A DNA stretch of 64,000 bases from an uncultured Verrucomicrobiae bacterium (lineage in GTDB: Bacteria; Verrucomicrobiota; Verrucomicrobiia; Limisphaerales; Palsa-1400), in the NCBI GenBank assembly GCA_963707025.1, contig CAVPOM010000016.1:124047-188046 (forward strand), given 5' to 3'. Numbering within the stretch: the stretch's first letter is position 1; the number at the start of each line of letters is the position of its first letter. The translations under genes and the position numbers were made by a program. The notes beneath the pieces were generated by a model. It searched no databases. It saw nothing but the letters and a program-made list of their open reading frames with translations, and was not told the DNA's origin. Below are positions 37,427-64,000 of this stretch, in pieces.

Positions 37427-37708
37427 TGGTGTCCAAAATGGTGTCCGCCGCCGCTCTCTCCTCTCCAACCCATTGTGTTACAACACATTGGAAATGGAGC
37501 CAGTTGCCGGACTTGGGCTTTCCATTCCGTTCTGGCCTTCCACTCGGTAACTCCACCAAATGAAGAGGTTGCGAATAAAATTCGCACTGCATTTACGAGG
37601 GAGAATATGCCATGAATGCATCCAGAATTCAAGACAATTCCGTCACTATTTTTCAGAATTCGTCTTTACTCATTTGGTGTCCAAAATGGTGTCCATTTTG
37701 GTGTCCAA
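37427..37708. repeat. TGGTGTCC direct repeats on both sides of the att core (putative integrase arm-type sites)
   Basis: tggtgtccaaaatggtgtcc at 37427-37446 and tggtgtccaaaatggtgtccattttggtgtccaa at 37675-37708. Confidence 0.75.
37495..37515 (-). mobile_element. att core: 3' end of a tRNA (possibly tRNA-Thr)
   Basis: Minus strand reads CAAGT-CCGGC-AACTGGC-T-CCA: partial T-loop, 5-nt T-stem strand, 7-nt acceptor strand, discriminator, CCA; the 5' part of the tRNA is absent. Confidence 0.75.
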
Positions 37709-37901
37709 TCTCGGAGAGTCGGCAAACACGCCGACATTCACTTTCCTTTCCGCTCAAAGGAAAGGGCGCAGAGCGAAAAGGCCAGCGCGAGCGGAACTGG
37801 AGTCCATGAGGTCAAAGACCTTTGGCGCGGGTCTGGGCCGGCGTGAGGCCCGGCGCCGGGGTTTGGGGACGGCGCAGTCCCCAAGAAAACCAATCTGAGG
37901 T

Positions 37902-38541
37902 TTAGGAAGGTCGAATTCGTTGTCGAATTGAATTCAGGTGGTATTCGTCGGTTTCGAGGGATCGGCGCATCCGGGCCATTTCAACGCGGCCAATCAAGCA
38001 GGCCATTGTAGGTTGGTCAAACAGGATGGGACGTTCTGCGGAAAGGCACGCAATCAATTCAGGAAGTTTCAGTACCGGTGGGCCCAAGATTGGATTTGAA
38101 GTCGGCATCGGCAGTGAAAACAACCAGCGGAACGAAAGCGTCGGGGGACAGGCTCAAGAGCACCTGTAAAGCCTTTACATGAGCGTAGTTTTGGCGAATT
38201 GGGTTCTGAAATCGGCATTTCTTCCTGTAAATCACTTGAGTCCACTGCGGGTCGTCGGCACGACCGAAAATCCAGCCGCTGTAGTGCTTGGTTTCGATCA
38301 CGAAAATCCCGGTATCGGCCACCAGGATATGATCAATCTGCGTCGTTCCCCGCTGGTTTTCGAAAGTCACGTTGTTAAGCAAAACGTGGGGGCGTTGAAA
38401 ATTGCCGCCGATGGCGTTGGCAACCAAGGCTTCGCCGATGTTGCGGCGCAAATGTTGAAAACGGCCAGCAAGTAAGCCAATCGCCATGCCCCCCAGAAGC
38501 GTGAGGAGAGCCAACAATGCGGCAACGAAAATCGGAATCAC
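37902..38541 (-). pseudogene. NERD-domain nuclease-related protein, frameshift near 38085
   Basis: N-terminal TM; GEALV, TTQIDHILV..TGIFVIETKHYSGWIFG, FQNPIRQN; C-terminus continues in the 37902..38123 frame. Confidence 0.8.
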
Positions 38542-38679
38542 GGTGTATTCAATTTCAGGTTGAATTGCACCCTAACAAGCTGTGGCCGTCAAACTCAAAT
38601 CAGCGCCCTAAACAAGTCCCCAACGACAGAAAAACGGCTGAACCGCTGCCAATCCAGCCGGGTGGGTTTGTCCGGGCGG

Positions 38680-39081
38680 TCAATCCTCGTCCATTAGCAT
38701 GACAGTAATTGCAGGCTGCGGGTCATCAATGTCGAGGGGGCCGCAAACGGCGGTCAACCTGACAAGTCGAGGGGCGCGATTGTCATTGCGGACGTACAGC
38801 GCAACCGGCAAGCGGTCGCAACCGGGGCGGCTGCGGAGGACGGCAAACCGGGCCATTGTGATTATATCCCAGAGCCGGCCGGCTTCGTCCTGGCAGGCCA
38901 CGCCGGGCGGCACGGTCACGTAAGCATCATAAACGGCGCGGGTGAGAAAAACCGGAAAGCGGATTCCGGCTTCCTGCGCGGTTTTGGAAACCTCAATCTG
39001 CACGCCATCGGCGACGGCCTGTGATCGGGTGCAAGAATAGATGACTTCGCCAAAGGGCGAGTTTTCGTTGTCTGTGTTCAT
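38680..39081 (-). CDS. Conserved mobile-element protein (DUF6573-like)
   Basis: VIYSCTRSQAVADGVQIEV..AQEAGIRFPVFLT...QDEAGRLWDI...CGPLD...PAITVML. Confidence 0.75.
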   Translation of the reverse strand: MNTDNENSPFGEVIYSCTRSQAVADGVQIEVSKTAQEAGIRFPVFLTRAVYDAYVTVPPGVACQDEAGRLWDIITMARFAVLRSRPGCDRLPVALYVRNDNRAPRLVRLTAVCGPLDIDDPQPAITVMLMDED

Positions 39082-39087
39082 GGTGTT

Positions 39088-39309
39088 TTAGCGGTTAAGA
39101 ATGGGGACTTCCGATTGTGGAGAGATACGAACCAAACCGGGCTTGGGTTGAATACGGACACGCACGCCAAAAAGGGTGGTGAACTCGCGCGGCTGCTTGG
39201 TCACGGCGACAACGGCGGAACAATCGGTGACGCGGACAACGCGACACGGCTTGCCGTCCAGGCGGATGACATCGCCAGCGCGGAGTCGGAATGGAGAAAA
39301 GGTTTTCAT
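39088..39309 (-). CDS. Small hypothetical protein
   Basis: 73 aa MKTFSPFRLRAGDVIRLDGKPCRVVRV...; 4-nt overlap with the upstream ORF. Confidence 0.65.
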   Translation of the reverse strand: MKTFSPFRLRAGDVIRLDGKPCRVVRVTDCSAVVAVTKQPREFTTLFGVRVRIQPKPGLVRISPQSEVPILNR

Positions 39310-39497
39310 TTGGGCTTTTGAGAAGCAAACAAACGCGCTTGCGCGGACTCTGCGGCACGGCGGGCACGGTCTGCCTCGGCTCGTTCGCGGGCAAGACGAT
39401 CTCCGTCTAATCCGGTTTCGAGTGCGAGATTGAAGGTGTCCCCGGCAAACAAAAATTCGTGTTGCGGAATGGGCAAGCGGCGTCTGTTTCGTTTCAT
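39306..39497 (-). CDS. Small hypothetical protein
   Basis: MKRNRRRLPIPQHEFLFAGDTFNL...; tightly packed operon with RBS. Confidence 0.6.
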   Translation of the reverse strand: MKRNRRRLPIPQHEFLFAGDTFNLALETGLDGDRLARERAEADRARRAAESAQARLFASQKPK

Positions 39498-39511
39498 GGT
39501 GGGTTCGCCTT

Positions 39512-39898
39512 TCAAGCGGCTTTGGCGTCTGCCGGGAAGTAGGTCTGATATTTATCGCGGGGGTCGCGGTGACTGGCGGTGGAAAAGTGGCCGCAAGGGT
39601 GTTGCCAAGTCTGGCGTTTCCGATTCCAATGGAAACCAAACTGGGACAGGGCGGCGGTAATCTCCGGCGGCTGTTTATCCTCAAACTGAATCCAAACCCA
39701 CTTGCCCACTACCTGCGCCAATTCCCAAAAGCGGGGTGTCTCGTGATAAAGCATGTCCAAGAGTTTTTCGGTGGAAAGTCCCCGGTTTTGAAATCGGAGT
39801 CTGAAATCAATCTGCGGCACTTGGTTTTCAATGCGCTGTGCGGTCCGGTTCAAGAGCCCCGAATCCGAATTTGAAACTGAATTTGTGTTTGTTTTCAT
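39512..39898 (-). CDS. Hypothetical mobile-element protein
   Basis: 128 aa, VVGKWVWIQF...LSQFGFHWNRKRQTWQHPCG; first gene of the leftward operon. Confidence 0.7.
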   Translation of the reverse strand: MKTNTNSVSNSDSGLLNRTAQRIENQVPQIDFRLRFQNRGLSTEKLLDMLYHETPRFWELAQVVGKWVWIQFEDKQPPEITAALSQFGFHWNRKRQTWQHPCGHFSTASHRDPRDKYQTYFPADAKAA

Positions 39899-40115
39899 AG
39901 TGTTTTTTTTACAACTGCGCGTGCGTTCTCGGACTGTCGCCCTTCACGAAAAAGCCTGCGGCACAGGGCGGCCAGCGGGAGTAGTCTTTAGAGGGCACCG
40001 CGTCCGGCCCCCTGTGGAAAGCAGGCTAGTGGAGGGCGACAGGCTGGGAACGCACGGCAAAAAACACTTGAAAACAACCATGAGGCCGGCAGAAGGGTAA
40101 TTGCCTCACACTCTG

Positions 40116-40301: not shown

Positions 40302-40957
40302 GGAGCGTTGTCTGGATTCCCGGCTCGCTTGTGAATTTCAGAATCCGTGAGCGTAACGGAGCGTTTGGGCTGGCCGCCCGCGTAGGGGAAAGGGCCGTGG
40401 AGCGGACAGAACAAAAAGCGGAGTGGAGCGGCGGATTTAGAAATTCATCAAGGGAGCCTCCGTGGGGGAGCCAAGTCTTGCGTCTTTGGCGGCGTAGTCT
40501 TTGAAGGGGAAGCCAAAGCCGACAAGTCTTGGCAACAGGGTCGGGCGATGGGGTTCCCGGGCACATGATCTGCGTTTCGTGCGAAATCATCAGAAATACA
40601 CAGATTTCTGATAGATTGGCGTTTTTGCAGCGTATTTATAGTAAGGGGATTTGTGGCCCGCGCGCGGTGATGGCACTTCTCCTGTTCGGGGGGTTGGGCT
40701 GATGTGGGCCGGCAACTGGTCAACGGCAAGCGGGCATTACTAGACGAACGCAAGTAGCGATGAAAATGTTGCCAATTGGCAACATTCGCACAGGTGGTTG
40801 AACAGCAAGCACTTAAAGGCAGAAAAGCCGGAAAGAGAGGCCAAATCGTTATGATGCAACAAGAAGCCAGTGCCGCAGACATCCCTGCTCCCGTGAATCG
40901 TCCGGGGGTGACTTCGGATCAACCTCGGGAGGCGGAGCCACATGAAGGATGCCAAAT

Positions 40958-41323
40958 ATGGCGGGACGCCTTTTGAGAATCAAAGAATGGGGACAGATGG
41001 CACGGGAAGCCGATTTCCAACCAACGAAACTGGCGATGCTGTGCTTGGTCTCGGATCGTCAATTGCAACGGTTTTCCCTCCAACGATTTGGTTTGACCCC
41101 CGGCAGGTGGCTTCGCACCCTGCAATGTCAACTTGCCAAAGATTTGATCTCGCAAGGCTGGTCCACCAAGGCTGTCGCGGCTGAACTCAAGTTTGCCAGC
41201 GAATCCCATTTCTGCCACGCCTTCAAGAAACTGTCCGGCAGAACGCCGCAGTCTTTTGCTCCGGTCTATGCAAAGAGCCAAAAATTGTCGCTTTTAGACA
41301 ATAATGTCGCTAATGAGCAATAA
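40958..41323 (+). CDS. AraC-family regulator, DNA-binding domain only
   Basis: LAMLCLVSDRQLQRF...FGLTPGRWL...AKDLI...KAVAAELKFASESHFCHAFKKLSGRTP. Confidence 0.88.
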   Translation: MAGRLLRIKEWGQMAREADFQPTKLAMLCLVSDRQLQRFSLQRFGLTPGRWLRTLQCQLAKDLISQGWSTKAVAAELKFASESHFCHAFKKLSGRTPQSFAPVYAKSQKLSLLDNNVANEQ

Positions 41324-41369
41324 AAACTGTAAAAACTCCGTTGACAAGGATCGGGAAGAATGTTTGAAT
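41286..41369 (+). promoter_or_regulatory. 19-bp tandem repeat followed by a sigma70-type promoter
   Basis: tgtcgcttttagacaataa / tgtcgctaatgagcaataa (41286-41323); TTGACA (41341)-17 bp-TTGAAT with extended TG. Confidence 0.55.
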
Positions 41370-41417
41370 CACCATGTTCACCGAACATACGATTTCAGGC
41401 ATACGCGGCAGGTTTAA

Positions 41418-42725
41418 ATGAAACAAAGCCGCTTTACGCCCATGAATGCGGCCAACGATTGGTTTTACAGTTCTCGAGGAAGTTCATTTTCCTTGGAATT
41501 CGCTTTGAAAAATGCGAAATTCTATTTTTCTAGGATTGGCCATTTCAGATCGCTTGCAAGTTTGACAGCAAGCTTTGTTCGGGCCTGCTTGATGCTTCTG
41601 CTTGCATTGACCGCTGCCCACGCTCTCTCGGTTTCTGCTCAGGAACCGCGCTATGTTGAGATTTCCGCTGAGGTTGACATGGTCAGCTACGTTAAACGTG
41701 ACACAAATGGTGCGCCAATTGAAACGAAAAGAAGTTTTCAGTTCACATGTATCGTAGGGACAAACGAATGGCGAATCGAAACGGGTTTCTCACCATTTAT
41801 CCAGGATACATGGTATTATGACGGCACCGATGTCTATGAGGCCAACCGTACCACAAACGATGAAGCGTTTGTGCAGATGAAGCAGTTCTCCCAGAAGATG
41901 CGGCCAAGGCCGGCGCTTGCTGATCCAGAAATCATCAAATCAAACCTTACAATCCACGTTACACCGTCCTTGGGCGGCCATCCGCTTGGCGACCTTGGGG
42001 TAAACATCCCGTGGCTCGCTTACTGTTCCGGAAGCTATCTAAAGCAGCAAGCCAGGGTCATTCCCCTTCCGACGACTGTAATTAGCGAAGCGGAGGATGC
42101 CTTCGCCTATGTAGATAAAACAGTCACTTTTCCTGATCAATTCGGGCTGCCATATACTCTTGATCTTTTGACGTCCAAAGATCAATATCGTCGAGGTTTA
42201 GAGGATAAACGAATTTACCGGAACACTCCTGCTGCATTGGCTGCGCTGAATCCAGTTGTACCGGCAGATCCCGATGGAACCCTCAAGTTCCATTACGAAG
42301 TTAAACAGGTCACAAATTTTGATGGATGGCAATTCCCGACGCAGTTCAGTTACGTTGATTATCGGCCGGATCGCAAAGGGGGTTGGCATCCCTATGTGGC
42401 GGGTCTTGGTAAGATGCTCTCTATTCGAGAATGTGGACCGCCAGCATCGGTATTCGATACGAATTTGCAGCAGACGGTGCAGGACTTCCGCTTCAGGCAC
42501 CCAACTAAAGTCCTAGATGCTATCACTTATACCACCACGAATAGCGCGCTATGGCCAACAAACGACCCACGATTACAAGCGGAATTCAAACGGCTGGCGG
42601 TTTTTGCACCTCTTGAGCACGGCATATCCATTCGTAGGGGTAGGATAATTTTCGGGATTATGGTAGTCTTGTTGGCATTTGTGCCTCTTTTCTGGTCACG
42701 CTTAAAATCCCGAAACAGCAGATAA
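41418..42725 (+). CDS. Exported protein of unknown function with C-terminal membrane anchor (paralog 1); start uncertain
   Basis: Signal-like segment ending SVSA-QE; C-terminal IIFGIMVVLLAFVPLFW plus basic tail; colinear motifs shared with 43769..45466. Confidence 0.8.
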   Translation: MKQSRFTPMNAANDWFYSSRGSSFSLEFALKNAKFYFSRIGHFRSLASLTASFVRACLMLLLALTAAHALSVSAQEPRYVEISAEVDMVSYVKRDTNGAPIETKRSFQFTCIVGTNEWRIETGFSPFIQDTWYYDGTDVYEANRTTNDEAFVQMKQFSQKMRPRPALADPEIIKSNLTIHVTPSLGGHPLGDLGVNIPWLAYCSGSYLKQQARVIPLPTTVISEAEDAFAYVDKTVTFPDQFGLPYTLDLLTSKDQYRRGLEDKRIYRNTPAALAALNPVVPADPDGTLKFHYEVKQVTNFDGWQFPTQFSYVDYRPDRKGGWHPYVAGLGKMLSIRECGPPASVFDTNLQQTVQDFRFRHPTKVLDAITYTTTNSALWPTNDPRLQAEFKRLAVFAPLEHGISIRRGRIIFGIMVVLLAFVPLFWSRLKSRNSR

Positions 42726-42746
42726 ATTGCAACAATACTAGTACTT

Positions 42747-43133
42747 ATGAAAACAACAAAGAAAACAAAAGTAGTTATCGGAATAGTGTTAGCCACTCTG
42801 TGCATCGCTCCGGCCAAAATGTTGCTTGCACAGGGACCATACGAATGGTCAACATGTTATTGGCCAGGCAGTCCAGACAGCTGTGTTATCGCTGTTCAAA
42901 ATGAGCCAGAATATGACCCCTGTGAAGCGCCAGATGGATGTACTGTTGCCACCCCTCCCACAACCCAATCATATTGCGTTTACTGGAGCCAGGACACTTG
43001 GTGTCCGGACGGCCACAAAGGAATATTGTTGGGTCAATTGTGGTATGTGGGAACTTGCGGTGGTGGTGCTTGTACTTGCCAGTACGACCCCAACAACGGA
43101 AAACAATCCGACCCCATAACGCTCTGCCCTTAG
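42747..43133 (+). CDS. Secreted cysteine-rich small protein (10 Cys in the predicted mature part)
   Basis: MKTTKKTKVVIGIVLATLCIAPAKMLLA leader; contains GTCGGGACTCQ. Confidence 0.75.
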   Translation: MKTTKKTKVVIGIVLATLCIAPAKMLLAQGPYEWSTCYWPGSPDSCVIAVQNEPEYDPCEAPDGCTVATPPTTQSYCVYWSQDTWCPDGHKGILLGQLWYVGTCGGGACTCQYDPNNGKQSDPITLCP

Positions 43134-43148
43134 TTCGCAGAAGAGCCC

Positions 43149-43272
43149 AGAGCGTGTTTTGAAAATCGTTTTCATTGTAGGAGCCGGCGCGTGAGGAGGC
43201 TCAAATTTCCGGGAGCCCATGGGGAAGACAGATCCTCCTCACGTTGGCACTTACGTTCTCAAAACAGGCTCT
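43149..43272. repeat. MITE/REP-like palindromic element
   Basis: Terminal inverted repeats agagcgtgttttgaaaa / ttctcaaaacaggctct enclosing gtaggagccggcgcgtgaggagg / cctcctcacgttggcacttac. Confidence 0.7.
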
Positions 43273-43326
43273 CACACCGGTTCTGCGACTTTTCGGGTCG
43301 GCGATTTTCGAGGATTCAGTAAAAGT

Positions 43327-43776
43327 ATGCTGTTCAAGTTTTTCATTCGTTCAGGAGGTGGCCTGTTATTAATTACCGGGATCGCAAAGGTCATTAGCGC
43401 ATCTGGGAAGCAGGCAATATTATACTCCCATGATCCCATCCTCGGGTTTACCTATCGCTATGTATTCATCCTATTAGGTTTGGTTGAAATCAGCATCGCA
43501 TTGTATTGTTTTCTCGGAACACGTCGCTTGCTCCAGGCCGGAATATTAGGCTGGCTTTCAGCTTGCTTTTTTCTTTATAGGACCGAACTTGGCTGGTTGA
43601 AGTATGCGCGACCGTGCCCGTGCTTAGGGAGCCTGACTGCCGCTCTTGCAATCCCTGAAAGAACTGCCGACCTGATTCTGATAGCGGTTCTTTTCTACAT
43701 GCTGATCGGTAGTTGTATTGCGTTCCTGACGCTGGCGGAGAACACCAAGCCACCTCTTAATCATACTTGTGATTAA
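43327..43776 (+). CDS. MauE/DoxX-like membrane protein
   Basis: LLLITGIAKV, GLVEISIA, PCPCLG (cf. the CxCxG motif of MauE), four TM segments. Confidence 0.75.
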   Translation: MLFKFFIRSGGGLLLITGIAKVISASGKQAILYSHDPILGFTYRYVFILLGLVEISIALYCFLGTRRLLQAGILGWLSACFFLYRTELGWLKYARPCPCLGSLTAALAIPERTADLILIAVLFYMLIGSCIAFLTLAENTKPPLNHTCD

Positions 43777-45466
43777 TATTACTAACATGCAAGACCCCCT
43801 CAAGCGCTTAGTTGTTACACAAAGAGATGAGGGTTCTCGGTGCGACCCAAAAGGAGTAGCTTCCGCACTTCATGTTTGTGCCGGCACAATATTGTTAATA
43901 TACGGCGCTTCACATTTCGGGTTTTTAACGCTTCGCGATCATAATCACCAGCTTCACAATTTAGTTTTCCCGATTATCAACAACTGGACACTTTATCTAA
44001 TCGTGGCAGCAATCGAGACAATTCTCGGAGTTGCTTGTTTTATCCGACGTGGCCACGAGGCAATTAGCATTACAATTGTAACATTTGTCGGAGTTATGAT
44101 TTGGTACAGATGGGCATTTTATTACGCAGGAGGAATACGTTGCAGCTGCACCGGTCTTCTAGGCAGACTGTTCCATTTTACACCCGCTCAAGAAAGGACT
44201 TTTCCTGTACTTACATTGATGTTGCTCATCGTGAGCGCATCACCATTCATCCTGAGAATATGTAAACGGATGTGCCGACTCTATACATTGGTGCTATTTG
44301 CGGTGTCGATGACTATGACTCTTGGACAATTAGACGCCAAGGCCGGAGACACTATTGCAATTCGTGGCCTGTTGGATTGGCAGGACTACGATTTCGTTAC
44401 GGCCAAACCCTCAACTAGGTATTATAAGCACTATGTATTTACAACGATGATTTCGGGGAAGTCTTGGAGCATATGCGTCACGAACATGAGTCGGCCTAGA
44501 TGGTGGGCGCAACTTGTTTATGATGGAAGCAGTACATTTATAATTCAACCTGCTACCAAATATGGGAGTCTTGCGACTAATGAAGATCAAGTGCCGGAAA
44601 CCAATTTGAATGAGGTTCTTGTAGAAGGATCGGCAAGATTCCTTCCCGAGTCAGATGAAATGCAATTAAGCATCGGATGGTTTACTTACGGTTTCTCGAA
44701 GTGGCTTTTAGGCACTAACACGAATGGATTCGTGGAGTTGCCGTTGCCAAGCGGCAATGTGCGTGAGAATCCGAGATCTTTTGGCTATAAATGGCTCGTC
44801 AACTTTTCCGATGGTGGGCTATATGCGAGTAATTGTCAGGTGGTGCGAGACCACGCTCTTGACAAAAGGGAGGCAGATGAATTATTCCGATCAGAGTTGA
44901 ATTACCCAGATACTTTGGCGGATTACAATGATTACCAGACTTTGCTGCGATTTAAAAGGGATACTCCTGATGGCTTCGTCAAACTTAAGTACAAATGTAC
45001 AAAATGGGCGGATACCAGCTTGGGAGAGGTGCCAAGTGAGTCGAAACTTGAGGTATACTGGTGGGATGAGAGACGTGGAATTGGGCGTTATCCATTCCAC
45101 GTTGTCACTTTGAAAGCTACAAACGTAGACATTCGCCCACCTGTAACGAGCCTTTTGCCAGAAGTTGAGGTGTTAACGAAGGTTGAGGATTACCGCTATA
45201 AACGGGTAAATTCCTCCAGAATTTTCAAGTATGCCGAGTATAATTTAGAGCCCGGCGATTTGTGGAAATCTGGCGATGATCCGATACTTGTAGCCAGGGC
45301 TGCTGAGTATCTTGAGCATGGCCGAAAGTATACACATTGGGCCAACAATGGAAGAATGTGGACGAGTTGGCTTCTTTTAGCGGTTTTACTCGCACCAGCC
45401 GTAATTGTGCTAGTAAGAAGGAAACAAAAACAAAGAAATCAGGAGTTAAACAATGAAAAAGTATAA
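43769..45466 (+). CDS. MauE-like domain fused to an exported membrane-anchored domain (paralog 2)
   Basis: N-terminal TM bundle with AAIETILG and RCSCTG; C-terminal region colinear with 41418..42725; C-terminal TM plus RRKQK. Confidence 0.8.
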   Translation: MINITNMQDPLKRLVVTQRDEGSRCDPKGVASALHVCAGTILLIYGASHFGFLTLRDHNHQLHNLVFPIINNWTLYLIVAAIETILGVACFIRRGHEAISITIVTFVGVMIWYRWAFYYAGGIRCSCTGLLGRLFHFTPAQERTFPVLTLMLLIVSASPFILRICKRMCRLYTLVLFAVSMTMTLGQLDAKAGDTIAIRGLLDWQDYDFVTAKPSTRYYKHYVFTTMISGKSWSICVTNMSRPRWWAQLVYDGSSTFIIQPATKYGSLATNEDQVPETNLNEVLVEGSARFLPESDEMQLSIGWFTYGFSKWLLGTNTNGFVELPLPSGNVRENPRSFGYKWLVNFSDGGLYASNCQVVRDHALDKREADELFRSELNYPDTLADYNDYQTLLRFKRDTPDGFVKLKYKCTKWADTSLGEVPSESKLEVYWWDERRGIGRYPFHVVTLKATNVDIRPPVTSLLPEVEVLTKVEDYRYKRVNSSRIFKYAEYNLEPGDLWKSGDDPILVARAAEYLEHGRKYTHWANNGRMWTSWLLLAVLLAPAVIVLVRRKQKQRNQELNNEKV

Positions 45467-45686
45467 GAAATATATCTCGATAGCTGCTATGATTATAGGA
45501 TTGATGGCGGGTGGTTCTGTTGCTATGGCTTCACGTCAATGTAATGTGACGATAACTTACACTTGCGTGTATAATGATTGCTTCAGCTTTAGTGGAGGTG
45601 GAATTATATATTGCAGTAGCGGCACTACGTGTTCCTGTCAGCCGACTGATACAGAGAATACTGATTGCGGTTGCTTTTTATCGTAA
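45453..45686 (+). CDS. Secreted cysteine-rich peptide (8 Cys in ~51 mature residues)
   Basis: AGGAG RBS; MKKYKKYISIAAMIIGLMAGGSVAMA leader; YCSSGTTCSCQ...DCGC. Confidence 0.78.
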   Translation: MKKYKKYISIAAMIIGLMAGGSVAMASRQCNVTITYTCVYNDCFSFSGGGIIYCSSGTTCSCQPTDTENTDCGCFLS

Positions 45687-45780
45687 TTGGAGCTACGCGC
45701 GACTGTGGGGTTGTTGTTTGTAACCAAGATGGCTGTAGTTTTTGTCCTGCTCGTCATCTAAGGTTGGGTAGTTTGGCTGC

Positions 45781-49469: not shown

Positions 49470-49516
49470 CTGCCTTGTTTGACCTGAGATTGATTATGCT
49501 GATTTGCCAACAGGAT

Positions 49517-56321: not shown

Positions 56322-56609
56322 ATGATAATGACATTGATCGTGTTCAAGGAGGTCCACAATACGTGGCCGGCCAAGAACGGAAAACCAGCGGGCGAATCCT
56401 ATGATTTGCTTTGCATGGACCAAAGCAACCCGCCGGAGCATCGCATGGAAGAGATGCTCTATTACCGGACCAAGGAGGAGGAGCGTCCCAGGGTTTGGGG
56501 CAAGTCGGTCGGCACCACCATCCAGGTGGGCGTGTCCAAAATCCGGCACGGCGAAAACGGCGGCAAGGCCACCCTGCTGGGTTCCATCATCGTCGAAGCC
56601 AAAAAATAA
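56322..56609 (+). CDS. Putative ssDNA-binding protein (gene V-like)
   Basis: 95 aa, beta-rich, WPAKNGKPAGESY hairpin motif, next to Rep; assignment rests on size and position. Confidence 0.55.
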   Translation: MIMTLIVFKEVHNTWPAKNGKPAGESYDLLCMDQSNPPEHRMEEMLYYRTKEEERPRVWGKSVGTTIQVGVSKIRHGENGGKATLLGSIIVEAKK

Positions 56610-56615: not shown

Positions 56616-57275
56616 ATGGCAACCAAAAATCCCCGGAGAGACAGAGACTGGCGCGAACCGATTCGCCGCTCCGAGGTCGCCACAGACTTTGGCATCACAC
56701 TGGCTCGAATCCAGTGGGACTTTTTTGCAACCCCGACCTTCGCGGGCACCGTGCCCAAACCTCAAATTGCGTATGGTCTTGCGTTTCGCTGGTTGCAGGA
56801 ATTGGCCCGGGTTTGCGGTCGTCCCTATAATCGCCTTCTCATTGCACTGCGTGGTGAAGAGGGCGAAGAAAAAGGGCGTTTCCACTTCCACTGTCTGGTG
56901 GGGGGAACTCTTACGCGCAACTATCACACGCTGCTTCACCAGGCGGAATGGCTTTGGAAGCGCCAGTCTGGCGGGGCGCGTGTAGATGTTCGGCAATACG
57001 ACCGCTCACTCGCTGGAGCGGACTACGTGTGCAAGTGCCTTGGGGCCAATGCCTACGAACTGAATAAGTACAGTTTTGCCAACTCCGTGACGCTTTCCGC
57101 TTCTGTTATCCGTTTGATAGCGGGTATTGACGCGAGTGGGGAAAGACGCGGCGGCGATGGACACATGAGAAAACAGGATGGTGCGAGGGCGGTTGGCGAA
57201 GGCGCTGGCCGGGACGCGCTTTGCGATGAGACATCCTCCCTGAATGCGGGCAGTCCGGCATCCGCCACGGCCTAA
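56616..57275 (+). CDS. Rolling-circle replication initiator (HUH endonuclease)
   Basis: Motif I FFATPTF, motif II RFHFHCLV, motif III ADYVCK. Confidence 0.85.
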   Translation: MATKNPRRDRDWREPIRRSEVATDFGITLARIQWDFFATPTFAGTVPKPQIAYGLAFRWLQELARVCGRPYNRLLIALRGEEGEEKGRFHFHCLVGGTLTRNYHTLLHQAEWLWKRQSGGARVDVRQYDRSLAGADYVCKCLGANAYELNKYSFANSVTLSASVIRLIAGIDASGERRGGDGHMRKQDGARAVGEGAGRDALCDETSSLNAGSPASATA

Positions 57276-57383
57276 GAGCTCCTTGTGAGCCACGGTGTGG
57301 GACGGAGCGGCGAAAATCCGCCATCAGATGTCAGGGATAAAATGCCAAAGCTATTGTGGCGCGTGTCAAAGTTACAATGGATT

Positions 57384-57426
57384 CCTTACCAAGGGGGGCG
57401 GCCTTCAGGCCGCCCCCCTGGTAAGG
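57384..57426. other. Strong hairpin in the phage intergenic region (candidate origin or packaging signal)
   Basis: ccttacca(a)ggggggcggcc-ttca-ggccgcccccctggtaagg: 19-bp stem with one bulge. Confidence 0.6.
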
Positions 57427-57549
57427 CTCCTTGTAGAAACCTTCTGCCCTGATGGGGAAGGGATTGGAGAGGGATTTCCAAGGGTTCGTGGTTCGCGTTT
57501 GCGGGCTGTTCACTTGGGGAAAAACAATGAAGTGAAAGGATAAGTAAGT

Positions 57550-57762
57550 ATGAAAAAGATGAAGTTGATTCTGTGCCTCCTGGCGGTTCTGGTTATCAGT
57601 CTGAGTTCTGCTCTGGCTGACGGGGGTTATACTCCGGTGTTTGCTGACCCGTCCACCATCACGGCGGCGGCAACGACCGCGTTCACGGCAATCGCGACCT
57701 TCATGGTCGGCGTGTTGGGCTTCTGGGTGATCTTCCGTCTGGTGAAGAAAATCCGCGGCTAA
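57550..57762 (+). CDS. Major coat protein (pVIII-like)
   Basis: 70 aa: signal peptide ending ALA-DG, amphipathic N-terminus, one TM helix, basic C-terminus RLVKKIRG; AAGGA RBS. Confidence 0.85.
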   Translation: MKKMKLILCLLAVLVISLSSALADGGYTPVFADPSTITAAATTAFTAIATFMVGVLGFWVIFRLVKKIRG

Positions 57763-57848: not shown

Positions 57849-57920
57849 ATGCCTCAACTGATTTGCTTCTGTGCCGGAATGGCAATCCCTCTGGCTCTGT
57901 TCTGGCTGTTCAAATGGTGA
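57849..57920 (+). CDS. Tiny hydrophobic protein (pVII/pIX-like minor coat candidate)
   Basis: Below the ORF-track cutoff: MPQLICFCAGMAIPLALFWLFKW, AAGGA RBS, 9 bp before the next ATG. Confidence 0.6.
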   Translation: MPQLICFCAGMAIPLALFWLFKW

Positions 57921-57929
57921 AAAGAATTT

Positions 57930-60005
57930 ATGAGAAAATTGTTACTTGGCGGGCTGATGTTACTGGGCGGGCTGGCGGTGCAAGCGCAACCTCCGGTGAG
58001 CCTTTACAACACCTTCATTTTCCACAACAACGGCACGTCTGAGGGGATACAGTATTGCACGCTGCGCGACTCCTACACGGGCTTCAACATCAGCGTCAGT
58101 TTTCCGGCGCCGTTCCTGGCGGCAGGGGCCAGTTACACAAAAGTCAGTTGGGGAAGCGCCTGGCCGGTGTATCAGGGCGACACGATTTCGTTCGTGGGCG
58201 GGGCCAACAACTGCGCCTGGCTGGATGGGAGCGCCGTTACGAGCGTCCAATTCTCCAGCGGGACAACCTACACGCTGCCTGGAACATCCGCCGGGAGTCC
58301 GGTCACAATTGACGTGTATATGTGGGGCGGCGCGGCGGCGGCGCCGGGCCGGCGGTTTCGACCAATTCCCTGTTTTGCGTCACGATCAACAATACTTCCG
58401 GCGTGGGCAACTCCTATGGGATTGCCAACGTGGACAACGGCGTTTTGCTGAGTATTGACGCCTGCGGGGATAATGAGATTTATGTGCCGGCGGGCGGGTC
58501 GGCGCAGATCTGCACGACGGCGGGGCCGACAAACAACCTGGCTTTGGTCACGGAGACGGGCGGCGGGATGGGTTCGCAGTCCACGCAAGTCAGTTTGCCA
58601 CTGATTGGGGATGGGGGCCGCAAGGCGGGCGGGTGCAGTTCGATGGCGGGGTATGACCCCAATTTCACGGGGACCATTGCCTCGACGAATTTGGTCGGGA
58701 CGGCCATTCCTCCGGGGGCTTCGTCCGGCTCGGTGGTCAATAACAATGGGGCCACCATTCCCTGGGCCAGGCGGCGACAGCGTCTATCCTGGCGGGACAA
58801 ATTCACCGATCAACTATGCCGGCATGGCGGGTTCCGGCTTGGCGTCCAATGCGACCCTGATAACGGGGTTTGACGCGGTATTTGCGGAATTGGTCAATGT
58901 GGCCAACGGGGTGGGCAAGCTGGATGTAGATAACAATGCGGGCCTGGGAGCCATCAGGGGTATCGAGGGCAGCATTTTGAGCGGCCAGGGGACCGGAAAC
59001 GCATTGCTGACAGCGGCCAACGGCGATTTGGCGGCCATCAATTCCAGCATTTCGTCCGGCAATGCGAGTTTGGGCAGCATCCAGGGCGCATTGGGCGGCA
59101 TGTCGAATAACGCGGCAGCCGTGGGCAGCAATACCATTCAGGGGCTTGGGGGAATCTCCAATTTGCTCTGGATCGCTGACGGGACTCTGTCGGGCATGTC
59201 CAACGGGGTCGAGCTAATCGTTTCCAATACCGGGGACATGGCGGGCCAGTTTGGGATCGTGTCCAATTTCGCGGCGGCGTCGCTGGCGGCCACCAATGAC
59301 GCGGTTGGGGGGCTGTCGCGGGTCTGGTCGGATGGGGCGAATGTGGCGGGCATGACCAATCACCTGGCCGGGTTCGCGGCTTCGCAGTTCGCCAATTTGA
59401 ATGTGCAAGGGTCCCTGGCGCAAGCAGGCGCAAACGACTTGGGGACAGGGCCGATTTCGTCGCTGGACAGCAGTTTTTGGAATTTGAACTGTGTGATGGG
59501 CGACAAGACCTATTCGTTTGACCTCAACCCAATGGACAATGCCGGGATTGCTTCCCTGGCCGGGGTGAGCCGGACTTGTGAACAGTGGATCGCGTGCGTG
59601 GTTTTCATCCTGCTGGTGATGAAACTGTTTGAGAAATACTCGGCGGGCCTGGCCGGGACCACGCAACTGCAAGCCAACCGCATGAGCGTTCTGGGCAACT
59701 CGGTGGGTCAATTGTCGGGCGCGGTGTATTTGCCTCTGATGGTGGCCCTGGCCGGGGCCATTCCGTTGTTTATCGGGGTCGCGGTGACAACGGGCGTCGG
59801 TTCCACCTGGTTTGGGGCGTGCGGGGTGATCCCGTTTCGGCCTGACGGCCTGACATCGGCTTTGCAGCAAGCCTACTGGCTGGCCGATCAATTTCTCCCC
59901 ATCAATTTCCTGATCTGCTCGGTGCTCTGGTACGTCTTCATCCGCCTCACGGCGGGGCCGATCTGGGCCATGTCCATGCTCGTGCTCAAATCCCTAATCT
60001 CCTGA
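57930..60005 (+). CDS. Adsorption protein (pIII-like) with pVI-like C-terminal extension; two single-base frameshifts (~58335, ~58762)
   Basis: Signal peptide ending VQA-QP; three overlapping ORFs join into ~691 aa; Gly linkers, Cys pairs, coiled region, FDLNP...WIACVVFILLV anchor then further TM segments. Confidence 0.7.
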
Positions 60006-60008
60006 CCT

Positions 60009-60686
60009 ATGATTGATTACCTGGCTTTGCGCGTGTTTGGCTGCTTTGCGGCGGCGATAGTTCTTGGCGGCGCGACTCTGATTGCGGTCGTGGATGGGGA
60101 GGCGGGACGGCGCCGGGCGTTGTTTTGGGGCATCTGCGGCGCGGGGCTGCTCCTGTGTGCGACGGCGCGGGCCGATGGTTACACGGTTACGGGCGTCGGG
60201 AGCGGGTCCGGGCCGGTCGGCGTGCTGTCTGACGGATCGGTCATGGTCCCGGTGATTTGGGACAATGAGACGGGCGCGGCTGTCGAGGTGGATTGCGCCA
60301 AGCCTGGCGGGAGCGGCATTTACTACACGCTTTGGCCGGTGCAGGGCGTTTCGGCGCTGTCCTGGGTTCTGGTGCCTCCAGGCGGGTGTTATTTCCAGGC
60401 GTTTTGCCCGTCGGACACTCACGAAGGGGACACGTTCAGTCCGGCGATGGATTTGAGCGGAACCAATGTCAACGTCGTGACGTTCGTTTGCGACAGCGGT
60501 TCGTTGGCGGCGGGCGGGTTGGGCGGCGTCTCGGTCGTGAATTACGGCTACATCCGGCCTGACCAGGCGCAAGAGTTCCTCTGGCCGTGGTTTATCGCGG
60601 GTTTCACCCTGGCCTGCACCGGGATTGCCTATCAACTGATTTGGCGGCAAGTCCGCAACATCGGCGGGGAGGCGCCCACAATGTGA
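60009..60686 (+). CDS. Phage exported/virion protein with C-terminal TM helix
   Basis: Long hydrophobic leader ending ARA-DG, beta-rich domain with 4 Cys, WFIAGFTLACTGIAYQLIWRQVR. Confidence 0.7.
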   Translation: MIDYLALRVFGCFAAAIVLGGATLIAVVDGEAGRRRALFWGICGAGLLLCATARADGYTVTGVGSGSGPVGVLSDGSVMVPVIWDNETGAAVEVDCAKPGGSGIYYTLWPVQGVSALSWVLVPPGGCYFQAFCPSDTHEGDTFSPAMDLSGTNVNVVTFVCDSGSLAAGGLGGVSVVNYGYIRPDQAQEFLWPWFIAGFTLACTGIAYQLIWRQVRNIGGEAPTM

Positions 60687-60901
60687 AAAGAAACGCTCCA
60701 GGATTGGGTATGAGGCGTTTTGAGAACACCTGCGTCGTGGTGACACGGGGGCGGCGCTTGGTTCGGACCTGGGCCGGCGGCTTGGACTACGCGCACATGA
60801 TGTGCCGGCTGGATGGCGTGATTGATCTTCTTGACGAACCGCTCCCGTATTTGGAGCGCGATCTTTTCTCCCTTTATGAGTCTCTATTTTGTCAGCGGTA
60901 A
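60683..60901 (+). CDS. Small hypothetical phage protein
   Basis: GTG overlaps the upstream stop; 72 aa filling the gap before the ATPase. Confidence 0.4.
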   Translation: MKRNAPGLGMRRFENTCVVVTRGRRLVRTWAGGLDYAHMMCRLDGVIDLLDEPLPYLERDLFSLYESLFCQR

Positions 60902-62804
60902 AATCGGGTCGGGCAAGTCCTATCGCGGGATGGTGAACATCCGGGACGAAATCCTGCACGGCCATCGTTTGATCGTGACCAATCTCCCGATCAAGCTGCC
61001 GGAGTTCTCGGATTACCTGGCGGAGCATTACCCATCCCATGATGTTTGCCTTTACGACCATTGGCGGCCGGCCACCGATTTCGAGTGTCCAGCGGGGGCG
61101 GGGGTATTTGCGCCCGGCCTGGTCGGCAAGGTGGTGGACGGCGTGGCGATGGTGCTGGTGCCTTCGCGCATTCGCATCCTGGGCGATGATGAGTTGAAGG
61201 AGTTCTACCGTTACCGGCAAACCGGCGCGGAGTTGGTGGCGAAAGTGAATCAACGGGCGTCGGGCGACAAGGGGCCGTCGCATCCGGTGTGCCTGGATTT
61301 CTCGCCGTGGGGCGCAAAGGGCCGCTTTGCCGGGCAGGGCGTGGTTTACCACCTGGACGAATGCCAGTTGTTTTACAACGTGCGCAAGTATGCGGAAGCC
61401 CCGGAGGAAATGCCCTTTTACCTGTCGCAGCATCGCAAGCTCGGTGACGACATTTACGTTTATACGCAGAAGCCGGAAAACGTGGACAAGATGCTGCGGA
61501 GTTTCACCCAGGAATACATATACCTGACCAACGTGGGGAAGAAGAAGATCGGCATCTTCCAGCCTCCCAGGTTCTTCCGCATGGCGGCTTACCCTGACGT
61601 GTTCACGGGAGCGCCTGGGCAAGCCTCGGAATGGTCGCGCAGTTTTCGGATGGATTTTCGGCTGGCGGATTGTTACGAGACGGCCAAGGGCATCGGGATT
61701 GAAGCCATGAAAGCGGACAAAGAGGCGGCGGCGCGGGGCATTTCGTGGCGGTGGGCGTTGCTGTTTCCGATAATCCTGGCGTCGTTGTTTCCGGCGTATG
61801 GGATGATTTCCAAGCATGTCGTGCATAAGTTCTTCGGGCAATCGGTGGACGCTTTGGCGGCGGTGCAACATCAGACTAATCGTGTGGACGGCGGGACGGT
61901 GGCGCGGGTTGTGCCAGGGGGCGCGAATGATGCTCCGTCGGCGGGTGCCGTGGCGGGCCTGCCTGCCGGCCAGATCGGGGCCGTTGCGCCGGCGGAAAAG
62001 CCAAATCTGATTGGCAGGCCGTTGCCCGCGGCTCCGCGGTTGGATGCCAGGACCGTCGCGGAATCTGTGTTTGCGGCGTCTGAGTCTGTGCCGACCGTTT
62101 CCCATGATGTGTTTTTCGTGGGAGTGATGACCACGCCGGACCGCAACGGGCGCTTGGTCACAACGGTAGTCTTGTCAGACAAGTCGGTTTATGTCCTGGG
62201 CGTGGACAAGGAGCTTACGAGCGTGACGGCCAAGTACTGCATCGTGGGCGGCGTGATGTATGCCTGGCGGTCGTACGAGGACATGGCGCGGGAAGCCGGC
62301 ACGGCGCCTTATCCGGCGTTCACGAAGCCTGGCGCAATGGCAACGCCACCGGCCGTTCTCCGTTCCGGTGGCGTGATTGTGGGCGGTTCCCCCCGGCAGG
62401 TACTAAAACCGGCATCCGGTAATCAAGGATTACAAACTCAAATGAAAGACGAGCAACATCAATTTCTGTCGTTGGTTGGGCAGCTCCCGGCCCGGCTGAC
62501 TGTCGAACAAGCGGCCTGGGTGCTCGGTTGCCAGTTCCATGACATGCCGATCCTCATTTCAACTCGTCTGCTGAAACCCCTCGGAAACCCGCCACAAAAC
62601 GCCGTCAAGTTCTTTTCCACGGCAGAGGTTACGGAATTGACCAAAGACCGGGCATGGCTGGCAAAGATGACGAACACCATCAGCCAGCACTGGCACAAAA
62701 GAAATGTGCGCCAGAAAAGTCATTCTCCAAATGGAGCGCGGCACGGTTTGTCCCCGAATTTAGAACGAGCAAGTTTAGCGACCACCGCTGGCGAAAACGG
62801 TTGA
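60876..62804 (+). CDS. Zot/pI-like morphogenesis ATPase, in frame with a C-terminal excisionase-like domain
   Basis: MSLYFVSGKIGSGKS (Walker A), IVTNL, YHLDECQ (Walker B), SQHRKLGDDIYVYTQ, CYET, one TM segment. Confidence 0.88.
   Translation: MSLYFVSGKIGSGKSYRGMVNIRDEILHGHRLIVTNLPIKLPEFSDYLAEHYPSHDVCLYDHWRPATDFECPAGAGVFAPGLVGKVVDGVAMVLVPSRIRILGDDELKEFYRYRQTGAELVAKVNQRASGDKGPSHPVCLDFSPWGAKGRFAGQGVVYHLDECQLFYNVRKYAEAPEEMPFYLSQHRKLGDDIYVYTQKPENVDKMLRSFTQEYIYLTNVGKKKIGIFQPPRFFRMAAYPDVFTGAPGQASEWSRSFRMDFRLADCYETAKGIGIEAMKADKEAAARGISWRWALLFPIILASLFPAYGMISKHVVHKFFGQSVDALAAVQHQTNRVDGGTVARVVPGGANDAPSAGAVAGLPAGQIGAVAPAEKPNLIGRPLPAAPRLDARTVAESVFAASESVPTVSHDVFFVGVMTTPDRNGRLVTTVVLSDKSVYVLGVDKELTSVTAKYCIVGGVMYAWRSYEDMAREAGTAPYPAFTKPGAMATPPAVLRSGGVIVGGSPRQVLKPASGNQGLQTQMKDEQHQFLSLVGQLPARLTVEQAAWVLGCQFHDMPILISTRLLKPLGNPPQNAVKFFSTAEVTELTKDRAWLAKMTNTISQHWHKRNVRQKSHSPNGARHGLSPNLERASLATTAGENG
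62442..62804 (+). CDS. Excisionase-like HTH protein (probable internal start)
   Basis: AAGGA upstream of the ATG; LPARLTVEQAAWVLGCQFHDMPILI...LLKPLG resembles MerR/Xis-type winged HTH proteins. Confidence 0.6.
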   Translation: MKDEQHQFLSLVGQLPARLTVEQAAWVLGCQFHDMPILISTRLLKPLGNPPQNAVKFFSTAEVTELTKDRAWLAKMTNTISQHWHKRNVRQKSHSPNGARHGLSPNLERASLATTAGENG

Positions 62805-62880
62805 GCGTGAAAGGCGCGTCCGAATTGCAGTCCCGCACAGGGTGGAGAAACATGGCGTTGGTTCGCGGGAGCGGACGTGA

Positions 62881-63828
62881 CTATTTTTTGTCGTCTGGTT
62901 GCATCGTCCGCGCAGCGTAGGCGATGACGGTGGTGGTGATGGCTTGGATCATCTGCGACTCAAATTGGTCGTAGTGCGGTTCGGGAAGGTGAACCGTGGG
63001 GTTCGCAGCAGTTTTGATCGCGGTAAGTGCGCTGTTCAACCAGGTGGAGGTAGCGGAACCAAGCCGCGTTTGCCAGCTTCGCTTTAATTCGGGCTGCCGG
63101 GCCGAGTCTTTGTTTTTTGGGTCCACGGGAACTGACGTGAAAAACGGATCGAGCGCCGTGCGGCATCTGGCTACGGCCATATCATAGAAGCCTTCTGCGT
63201 GGAGTGATTGTGCCTGGCGCAGAGCTTCGTAGGACCGATTAAGGGCTTGGCAATTTTCGATTGGCACTGCGGGAAGTTCAACCAGGTGAACCACCCCAAA
63301 GCCCGTGTTTGGTAAAACACGTTCAATCCAGGTTGACCGAGGAATCCTGATGGATAATTTTGCCGTCAGGCGGAGCACACTGCGAACTCCCCATATTGCC
63401 GGGCGCTGCGTCTTTGGATCTCCTTCGATGGGCCGATGTTCCTCAACGGTCAGTTGACAATCAATGTTCAGAGCCAAGTCTTTGCCATCACGCTGCCGTT
63501 CCATTGCCGTGACACGCTTCGCATCAATGGGAAACTCCAGGGACAGGTATTCAGGGCCGACATAATGCGCGTGGGTGCGCTGAACACGAACCAGCCTTAA
63601 AGGAATTGCGTCCGCCAATTTTCCAACGTTATCGCGCGACAATTGCGCGTCAAGCCCAGTGAAAACATAATCTGCGAGCTTCTCGTGCAGAGGATAGTAA
63701 TCGAGCTTAACGGGAATCATGAGGCGGGGATAGATCGCGCCACCGGTTCCGAACAATAGCGCCTCATCAACGGAAATGCCCGCGAGTCCAGAGCCGCTGG
63801 CGAGGCATGAAAACATTTGGTCGCTCAT
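62881..63828 (-). CDS. Hypothetical protein with HEPN-like C-terminal domain
   Basis: LRQAQSLHAEGFYDMAVARCRTALD ... AANPTVH ... ESQMIQAITTTVIAY; beta-rich N-terminal half. Confidence 0.55.
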   Translation of the reverse strand: MSDQMFSCLASGSGLAGISVDEALLFGTGGAIYPRLMIPVKLDYYPLHEKLADYVFTGLDAQLSRDNVGKLADAIPLRLVRVQRTHAHYVGPEYLSLEFPIDAKRVTAMERQRDGKDLALNIDCQLTVEEHRPIEGDPKTQRPAIWGVRSVLRLTAKLSIRIPRSTWIERVLPNTGFGVVHLVELPAVPIENCQALNRSYEALRQAQSLHAEGFYDMAVARCRTALDPFFTSVPVDPKNKDSARQPELKRSWQTRLGSATSTWLNSALTAIKTAANPTVHLPEPHYDQFESQMIQAITTTVIAYAARTMQPDDKK

Positions 63829-64000
63829 AAATTTTTCACATGCTAACTGATAAGAATCTCGGGTCCACTCCTTTACGGAGCAGTGGGCCAAATCTTGCAA
63901 ACCGTAACCACCGATAACCTCAGAGTGCCGCCCTGGTGCCATAGAATCCGCCACGGCACGCCGTCACCGGTCTTGGCGTTCGCCTTCACTGATTCACCGC

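What the first reader, a model, noticed from the sequence alone, without database searches (positions are those of the whole stretch)
37495..64000. Composite tRNA-targeted island of at least 26 kb whose only visible transfer machinery is a filamentous-phage module
Seen: att core at 37495-37515, then mobile-element genes, cargo cassettes, an inovirus-like gene set and an excisionase-like ORF; no relaxase-T4SS or tailed-phage genes within the window. Established: islands integrated at tRNA 3' ends leave a short duplicate at the far end, and inovirus particle length scales with the ssDNA packaged. Inference: the intact tRNA and integrase lie beyond 64000, and the whole island may be replicated by the HUH Rep and extruded as a very long filament. 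The alternative is a small inovirus nested inside an unrelated island.
Basis: partly seen in the sequence, partly recalled or inferred. Interest (0 to 1): 0.85.

Follow-up and report, generated by a model that had tools for sequence, protein, structure and literature searches.

The report
Genomic island with filamentous-phage exit genes
A 28,000-base mobile DNA island in a Verrucomicrobia bacterium carries the genes that thread-like viruses use to push single-stranded DNA out of a living cell, so it may leave whole, cargo included, as an unusually long filament, though no particle has been seen.

Summary
Mostly confirmed. 37495-37515 is the att core (tRNA-Thr CGT 3' end), flanked by integrase arm repeats. 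It is a tandem junction, not the chromosomal border. The contig ends at 64000 inside the integrase's last codons. A sister copy in the same genome supplies integrase and second core: 40.0 kb core to core, about 27.7 kb predicted here.

The island holds an HUH Rep, one candidate origin and a coat/pIII/pI cassette under purifying selection. A small nested phage is unlikely: no inner att or second origin, and the cassette sits where Rep-only relatives join origin to excisionase. A relative's 19.2-kb att-bounded element has Rep and coat genes at opposite ends of its cargo.

New: a conserved stem-loop at 39.9 kb folds best on the Rep/pI sense strand, which templates the genes beside it (21 of 21 Rep/pI elements). 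Many relatives lack coat genes (candidate satellites).

Against: whole-island extrusion is untested; conjugation genes lie elsewhere in the genome; frameshifts are unresolved. Closest precedent: Dehalococcoides IME1 (21-28 kb). No earlier scan note described this. New variant; 0.72.

The parts
36847..37000 (-). Scrap of another mobile element's gene, at the left edge of the array
   Evidence: 82-90% to C8:179691-179834, C10:3887-4002, C9:442475-442588
37001..37330 (-). 5' part of a truncated tyrosine integrase of an older, mostly deleted element (outside the island proper)
   Evidence: 89-90% aa to full integrases on C9 and C17; full copy hits PHROG integrase E 1e-14
37427..37446 (+). Arm-type repeat, right-end arm of the older element
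   Evidence: repeat family D2; same motif at element ends on C7, C9, C17 and G014; integrase-binding role inferred
37495..37515 (+). att core = reverse complement of tRNA-Thr(CGT) 3' end; left end of the island
37675..37706 (+). Left-arm repeats of the island
37738..37893 (+). Conserved multi-hairpin non-coding module (candidate single-strand origin or packaging region; inferred)
   Evidence: 8 copies in G000 and copies in relatives; directly follows the pI stop in L045 and L049; folding z only -2.2 here and +0.3 in G029, little covariation
38059..38541 (-). NERD nuclease-related gene, an insertion missing from the sister copy
   Evidence: PF08378 E 2e-29; gap in alignments
38680..39898 (-). 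Left-arm gene block: DUF6573 (38680-39081), small ORFs, orf39.5 (39512-39898, no known family or fold)
   Evidence: PF20213; orf39.5 in 20 of 60 relatives, 4417 homologues; best PDB Z 3.3
39899..40068 (+). About 170-nt covarying stem-loop directly upstream of orf39.5, on its template strand (Frpo-like by position; function inferred)
   Evidence: 30 copies, 17 of 38 pairs with more than one Watson-Crick type; + strand more stable in 24 of 27, G-T:A-C 28:3; no Rfam match
40949..46041 (+). Variable cargo: AraC regulator, membrane/secreted proteins, two MauE-like genes, IS256 scrap (45754-46041, - strand)
   Evidence: largely replaced in the sister copy
46469..52167 (.). Gtr-like surface-glycosylation cassette: GtrA, membrane protein, GT87, GT2, membrane protein (- strand)
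   Evidence: PF04138 E 1e-22, PF09594, PF00535; 79-87% nt to sister copy
52715..53446 (+). Prepilin-type N-methyl gene of host style
   Evidence: PF07963
53739..56073 (+). Gene pair of unknown function, shared with non-inovirus elements; the first gene has a frameshift near 54734 relative to the sister copy
   Evidence: second gene in 7 of 60 relatives; beside primase/terminase-like genes in G045
56328..56609 (+). Small ORF in the position of the ssDNA-binding protein pV (by position only)
   Evidence: no family hit; precedes Rep in relatives
56616..57275 (+). HUH rolling-circle Rep, motifs intact
   Evidence: PF23343 in 5 of 5 aligned members; invariant H90, H92, Y137; fold matches AAV Rep and SIRV1 ORF119
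57306..57436 (+). Candidate double-strand origin: conserved block plus perfect hairpin, single copy in the island
   Evidence: conserved after Rep in Rep-only relatives L142, L145, L146; hairpin z -7.6; nick site not identified
57550..57762 (+). Major coat protein pVIII-like
   Evidence: PHROG 1646 E 0.007; hydrophobic leader, one TM, basic tail
57849..60901 (+). Minor coat region: 23-aa TM ORF, pIII-like adsorption protein (57930-60005, two frameshifts here, 667 aa in the sister copy), orf60.0, orf60.7; names by position and hydrophobicity
60876..62399 (+). pI (Zot-family) morphogenesis ATPase; about 508 aa in relatives, read through into the next ORF here
62442..62804 (+). Excisionase-like ORF (by position next to integrases; no Pfam hit)
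62881..63828 (-). Unknown accessory gene
   Evidence: no family hit
63986..64000 (-). Last four codons and stop of the island's integrase; contig ends here

Best explanation
A tRNA-Thr-targeted integrative element that replicates by rolling circle and has a filamentous-phage morphogenesis cassette, so that the whole island is the phage genome. Steps: (1) integrase and excisionase recombine the two cores and release one circle of about 27.7 kb (parts shown; excision inferred, about 0.9). (2) The HUH Rep nicks the single origin after its gene and displaces the + strand of the whole circle (Rep fold shown; origin and product inferred, about 0.75). (3) pI and the coat proteins extrude that strand through a host secretin as a filament of roughly 3.4 micrometres, scaled from 8.1 kb per micrometre for phage Dolos (inferred, untested, about 0.5). 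(4) In the new cell the stem-loop at 39.9 kb forms on the incoming + strand and drives the left-arm genes before the second strand is made (structure and strand shown; promoter role inferred). (5) The circle integrates at a tRNA-Thr 3' end, building tandem arrays. Rep-bearing relatives without coat genes would ride along as satellites (inferred).
For: One att-bounded unit: arm repeats at both ends, no inner core, sister copy 40,000 bp core to core. Independent complete relative G029:C51: 29-bp repeat 19,199 bp apart, Rep at one end, coat/pI at the other, cargo between. Same layout with a distant pI in G065:C3, at least 16 kb, ends not found. The cassette has no integrase or Rep of its own and lies where Rep-only relatives join origin to excisionase; in L046 it sits with a different Rep. 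pI is followed directly by the left-arm hairpin module in L045 and L049. dN/dS 0.13-0.17 for pI, 0.10-0.25 for pIII. Left-arm block antisense to Rep/pI in 21 of 21 elements with such a neighbour, out of 51 blocks examined. Stem-loop favours the + strand. Six secretin matches in the genome. A 51,466-nt ssDNA has been made with an M13 phagemid/helper system (PMC7435391).
Against: No particle, circle or depth evidence: no source reads were available. The left-arm block and the 53.7-56.1 kb pair are shared with relaxase-type and PICI-like elements, so they are not phage-specific, and 4 of 5 relaxase neighbours are antisense too, so orientation does not single out phage delivery. Rep is commoner than pI (15 of 30 against 5 of 30 family genomes), and the genome has T4SS genes on C10, so Rep circles could move by conjugation. 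Four frame-breaking differences in 10.3 kb of this copy's backbone and one in the sister's pI: within the assembly's 0.21-0.30 indels per kb but possibly real. Selection on pI was measured against relatives of unknown size. Other att-bounded pI elements in the order are only 8.2-9.1 kb. The sister copy carries an IS of 3.7 kb and swapped cargo, as a decaying island might.
Confidence: 0.5

Rival explanations
1. Overgrown or hitch-hiking island: the unit excises and may replicate, but at 28-40 kb it is rarely or never extruded. It moves by integrase hops inside the genome or by conjugation in trans (Rep acting as relaxase; recalled for other rolling-circle plasmids, not tested), and the coat cassette is kept working in smaller relatives or mainly serves smaller satellites.
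For: T4SS genes and TrwC relaxases elsewhere in G000; many Rep elements lack pI, including a complete 16.8-kb one in G000 and an 11.7-kb one in G015; cargo turnover, IS pieces and unresolved frameshifts; shared modules across element types.
Against: Cassette and cargo share one att-bounded unit in two pI subclades (58% identical) and a second pI lineage; purifying selection even between the two large copies (pIII 0.10, Rep 0.19; few sites); the VirB4 family PF03135 was not found in G000 and the C10 ATPase looks split.
Confidence: 0.37
2. A small inovirus (about 56-64 kb) nested in an unrelated island, leaving by itself.
For: Canonical 8.2-9.1-kb inoviruses with related Rep genes occur in the order; G+T skew at fourfold sites is strongest in the 53.8-62.4 kb backbone and weak in the 41-45 kb cargo.
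Against: No inner att core, no flanking repeat and no second origin copy; the only integrase is the one whose arms mark the far left end; in G029 the Rep lies 12 kb from the coat genes, across the cargo.
Confidence: 0.08
3. Assembly chimera of separate elements at a collapsed repeat.
For: Three contig ends fall inside this element family and the last 3.7 kb are 99.65% identical between copies.
Against: Both copies run without a contig break from the left core into the coat genes with different cargo and 90-98% backbone identity; the layout recurs in other genomes.
Confidence: 0.05

Closest known systems
Inoviruses (Tubulavirales) with integrase, as surveyed in PMC6813254
   Same: pI ATPase, small TM coat protein, pIII-like protein, rolling-circle Rep, tRNA att site
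   Different: That paper gives 5-20 kb, and 5.7-11.9 kb for its four Verrucomicrobia species. Here 19-40 kb with roughly 8-26 kb of cargo and a left-arm module shared with mobilisable islands
Dehalococcoides IME1 (bioRxiv 10.64898/2026.09.15.751708)
   Same: 21-28 kb integrative elements with tyrosine recombinase and pI, found enriched in viral fractions; shows that size alone is not unprecedented
   Different: IME1 has a primase-helicase, SSV1-like coat, 14 conserved gene groups and is proposed to be dsDNA. This element has an HUH Rep, a pVIII-type coat, ssDNA-type hairpins and interchangeable cargo
Inovirus satellites RS1, TLC (PMC3545932) and pDolos (bioRxiv 10.1101/2023.11.28.569023)
   Same: Rolling-circle elements without morphogenesis genes packaged by a filamentous helper; model for the pI-less relatives
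   Different: Those are 2.7-5.4 kb; the candidates here are 11.7 and 16.8 kb, integrase-encoding, with large cargo; packaging untested
Plasmid leading region with Frpo/ssi promoters (PMC11541004)
   Same: Long stem-loop upstream of small genes oriented for transcription from incoming ssDNA
   Different: Here linked to HUH Rep and pI; no -35/-10 boxes or sequence likeness to Frpo shown
VPI-phi claim for the 41-kb Vibrio TCP island (PMC3545932)
   Same: The idea of a 40-kb island leaving as a filamentous phage
   Different: That claim was found incorrect and the island lacked morphogenesis genes; this island has them

Membership tests
Inovirus (Tubulavirales) | pI-like morphogenesis ATPase | tested here: met
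   PF05707 E 1e-12; PHROG 1675 E 7e-12
Inovirus (Tubulavirales) | Short single-TM major coat protein and further small hydrophobic genes | tested here: met
   70-aa ORF, PHROG major coat E 0.007 (weak), hydropathy; 23-aa TM ORF
Inovirus (Tubulavirales) | Rolling-circle initiator | tested here: met
   HUH motifs and fold
Inovirus (Tubulavirales) | ssDNA-binding protein pV | tested here: inconclusive
   ORF in the right place, no family hit, not folded
Inovirus (Tubulavirales) | Genome of about 5-20 kb | tested here: not met
   27.7 kb predicted, 40.0 kb sister copy; a described range rather than a mechanism, but it is why I file this as a variant and not as a plain member
Inovirus (Tubulavirales) | Circular ssDNA in an extruded filament | not testable with these tools
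   needs particles or raw virome reads
Inovirus (Tubulavirales) | Intact morphogenesis genes in this copy | tested here: inconclusive
   indels at about the assembly error rate
tRNA-targeted integrative element | Tyrosine integrase with att cores at both ends | tested here: met
   sister copy complete; this copy shows left core, arms and the integrase stop
ICE / IME (conjugative) | Relaxase, coupling protein or T4SS inside the element | tested here: not met
   no such hit among island ORFs; TrwC and TrbI matches lie on other parts of the genome; PF03135 absent
Dehalococcoides IME1 | Primase-helicase and serine resolvase module, SSV1-like coat | tested here: inconclusive
   no primase or resolvase hit among island ORFs scanned; IME1 proteins were not compared directly
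Frpo/ssi ssDNA promoter | Long stem-loop on the template strand upstream of the gene | tested here: met
Frpo/ssi ssDNA promoter | -35/-10 boxes in the stem and transcription from ssDNA | not tested
   no boxes evident by eye; needs an assay

The most novel reading that the evidence does not exclude
In these Verrucomicrobia a family of 12-40 kb rolling-circle genomic islands spreads by filamentous-phage extrusion. A minority carry the coat/pI cassette and leave whole as 2-5 micrometre filaments; the rest are cargo-laden satellites packaged by them; all use a plasmid-style single-strand promoter to express genes on entry. Filament extrusion would then be a third route, beside conjugation and tailed-phage transduction, for moving large islands without lysis or cell contact.
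Probability: 0.33. Interest if true: 0.92.

Novelty: new variant of a known kind. Interest (0 to 1): 0.72.

Why it matters
Characterised filamentous phages package about 4-11 kb, and an earlier claim that a 41-kb island is a filamentous phage was found incorrect. This island has the morphogenesis genes that claim lacked, plus a rolling-circle Rep, so the question of whether extrusion can move a 20-40 kb island becomes directly testable. It would also explain how Rep-only cargo islands move, and show that size-limited inovirus searches clip such genomes. The Gtr-like cargo could change the host surface and phage receptors (inferred).

Tried and rejected
Reads: no run held half of the words of 35001-45000 and no RNA holder was listed. 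Contigs of four runs gave only short pieces, with no depth or junction information.

Orientation flip between relaxase and Rep elements: I predicted that the block would be same-strand with relaxases; the count was 4 antisense, 1 same, and mixed for MobC and coupling proteins. Rejected as a discriminator. In that count 51 blocks in 50 stretches were examined and 21 had a Rep or pI neighbour; one MobC neighbour (G014:C40) lies beyond an att repeat and belongs to another element. Copies are related, so 21 of 21 is not 21 independent events.

Strand skew as a sign of an ssDNA phase of the cargo: island GC skew 0.102, reached by 24 of 497 genome windows; absent in the 41-45 kb cargo and in the sister's cargo. 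Inconclusive.

In one search, 3 of 30 stem-loop copies were dropped (one truncated, one with a replaced arm, one duplicate). The 37.7-kb hairpins fold only weakly.

No relative of pI or Rep in viral contigs; one weak phage record. orf39.5: no PDB sequence match, best fold Z 3.3, a DUF3560 protein at E 0.16 (lead only), no named family in the Atlas (likewise the 55084 protein).

Synteny test to join C16 to C17 through the GH28 gene failed: no close orthologue in 5 genus genomes. No att repeat was found for G065:C3 or G301 or G068. No Rfam match in 36800-64000. The promoter scan of 53400-64000 was at chance level.


Full report
1. Setting. The window is G000:C16:124047-188046 and ends at the contig end. 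Relatives' record titles are mostly Verrucomicrobia (4 of 5), agreeing with an earlier scan note on this genome. The assembly has 18 contigs, is 88% complete and shows 0.21-0.30 indels per kb among IS copies, an upper bound on error.

2. The att site. The 21-mer at 37495-37515 matches the 3' end of tRNA-Thr(CGT) and occurs exactly three times in the genome. To its left lie an arm-type repeat (37427) and the 5' 330 bp of a truncated integrase; to its right, two more arm repeats (37675-37706). The same arm motif marks both ends of the sister copy and of a complete island in G014. So the site is a junction between an older, mostly deleted element and this island, and the island's left arm belongs to the integrase at its right end. 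That integrase's stop codon is at 63986-63988.

3. Size. The ends of contigs C7 and C9 overlap at 99.72% over 3214 bp and give a sister copy of 40,000 bp, core to core, with a full 340-aa integrase, followed by a 5'-truncated tRNA-Thr. The window copy is 97-98% identical to it over 53.6-60.3 kb and 99.65% over 60.3-64 kb, but has different cargo, so it is a second copy. If its right end matches, it is 27,701 bp. No inner core exists in either copy at up to 5 mismatches.

4. The phage genes. pI (PF05707), a pVIII-like coat, a pIII-like protein and small hydrophobic ORFs are present. Rep keeps its HUH motifs, matches PF23343 in 5 of 5 aligned members (below the cut-off for this copy) and folds like AAV Rep and SIRV1 ORF119. 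No secretin hit was found in the island; the genome has six matches. pI, pIII and orf60.0 show dN/dS of 0.07-0.25 against metagenomic relatives. This copy has four frame-breaking differences in 10.3 kb (54734, 58331, 58768, 62399) and the sister has one in pI; 2-3 are expected from error alone, so intactness is unresolved.

5. Nested phage or whole island? After Rep comes a conserved block and hairpin (57306-57436), single in both copies. In Rep-only relatives L145 and L146 the same block is followed directly by the excisionase-like gene; here the coat-to-pI cassette lies between them. In L046 the cassette (window 57486-62415) sits with a different Rep placed after pI. The cassette therefore has no integrase, att or Rep of its own. 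pI was found in 4 of 60 relatives, 16 of 400 genomes of the order and 5 of 30 of the family, one a fragment. Among those fetched, both ends were visible in G029 (19.2 kb, 29-bp tRNA-type repeat), G308 (9.1 kb), G312 and G353 (8.2 kb each) and a broken 7.2-kb piece in G015; the others were cut by contig ends or showed no repeat. In G029 the only Rep found lies 12 kb from the coat genes, across the cargo. G065:C3 repeats the layout over at least 16 kb with a pI from another lineage. In L045 and L049 the pI stop is followed at once by the hairpin module found here at 37.7 kb. Of 14 metagenome loci I examined 10; all are 1-10 kb, so none gives an element size.

6. A single-strand entry module. orf39.5 occurs in 20 of 60 relatives, often in several copies. 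Directly upstream is a 170-nt stem-loop: 30 copies, 17 of 38 consensus pairs with more than one Watson-Crick type. It is more stable on the + strand in 24 of 27 copies (DNA parameters), with G-T outnumbering A-C 28 to 3 in single mismatches; base composition alone gives about 1 to 1. The + strand is the template of orf39.5 and the sense strand of Rep and pI, which by general knowledge of rolling-circle replicons is the displaced and packaged strand (recalled). Of 51 blocks examined, 21 had a Rep or pI neighbour with no integrase between; all 21 were antisense. This matches the description of plasmid leading regions with Frpo promoters (PMC11541004, passages). Limits: the copies are related, an antisense RNA could explain the strand bias, and 4 of 5 relaxase neighbours were antisense too, so the module does not prove phage delivery.

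7. The wider family. The block also sits on TrwC- or MobA-type mobilisable elements, PICI-like elements and islands with no mobility genes found. This Rep family was found in 15 of 30 family genomes (some matches weak or with stops), three times as often as pI. Complete Rep elements without pI include 16.8 kb in G000 and 11.7 kb in G015. They may be satellites, as RS1, TLC and pDolos are, or be mobilised by conjugation; G000 has T4SS genes on C10.

8. Mechanism and odds. Excision as one circle about 0.9; rolling-circle copying of the whole circle about 0.75; extrusion of the whole strand about 0.5. At the Dolos ratio (8146 nt, about 1 micrometre) the filaments would be about 3.4 and 4.9 micrometres. 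Rivals: overgrown island moving by other routes 0.37; nested small phage 0.08; assembly chimera 0.05.

9. Literature. PMC6813254: term-search passages and supplement hits only; it gives 5-20 kb and four Verrucomicrobia species of 5.7-11.9 kb. I did not read its whole length table, which may hold larger entries; the IME1 paper says that survey included a full-length IME1. bioRxiv 10.1101/2023.11.28.569023: abstract and first part of Results. PMC3545932, PMC11389934, PMC7435391, PMC11541004: passages. Searches listed no paper on this family, judged from titles and abstract starts; most subscription papers are not in the library.

10. Verdict. A real and unusual element: an inovirus morphogenesis cassette on a large rolling-circle tRNA island, within a modular family with candidate satellites. 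Size has a precedent in IME1, which differs in replication and coat. New variant of a known kind; interest 0.72.

Noticed in passing
G000:C9:21067-37885: Complete 16.8-kb element between 46-bp tRNA-Arg repeats with integrase, small ORF before Rep, a second HUH Rep type, the left-arm block and large cargo genes but no pI: a candidate satellite in the same genome.
   Followed up: partly
G000:C10:16874-26133 (L128): T4SS-like gene cluster (TrbI, TrbC, weak TrbL and TraG P-loop hits) inside an integrase-bearing element; the ATPase looks split.
   Followed up: partly
G000:C17:4584-9317 and C17:223376-228081: Inverted 4.7-kb duplicates (97%) with the same integrase and excisionase-like gene but no pI; one abuts the intact tRNA-Thr(CGT), the other a secondary site.
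   Followed up: partly
L072-L073 (G014:C40, 14815-30466 of the joined stretch): 15.6-kb island at intact tRNA-Thr(CGT) with an 88% identical integrase, the left-arm block and two very large cargo genes, but no Rep or transfer gene found.
   Followed up: partly
window 40100-40560: Further strong stem-loops (z -4.1) and a 28-bp direct repeat upstream of the 39.9-kb stem-loop, conserved in G015 and G029.
   Followed up: no
L022, L033, L072, L086, L089, L106: Cargo of these islands is often very large proteins (1300-2100 aa); TSP3, RHS and transglutaminase domains in the ones scanned.
   Followed up: no
L062-L063 (G045:C202): The 53.7-56.1 kb gene pair and the left-arm block also frame an element whose ORFs look like primase and terminase genes by inspection, PICI-like.
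   Followed up: no
L035-L036, L118-L119, L039: Ordinary small inoviruses of 8.2-9.1 kb at dif-like (recalled motif) or tRNA-Arg sites in the same order.
   Followed up: partly
   Followed up: no
window 27968-36784: Run of carbohydrate-active genes left of the array, two with GH28 hits, and a 1117-aa Ig-domain protein.
   Followed up: no
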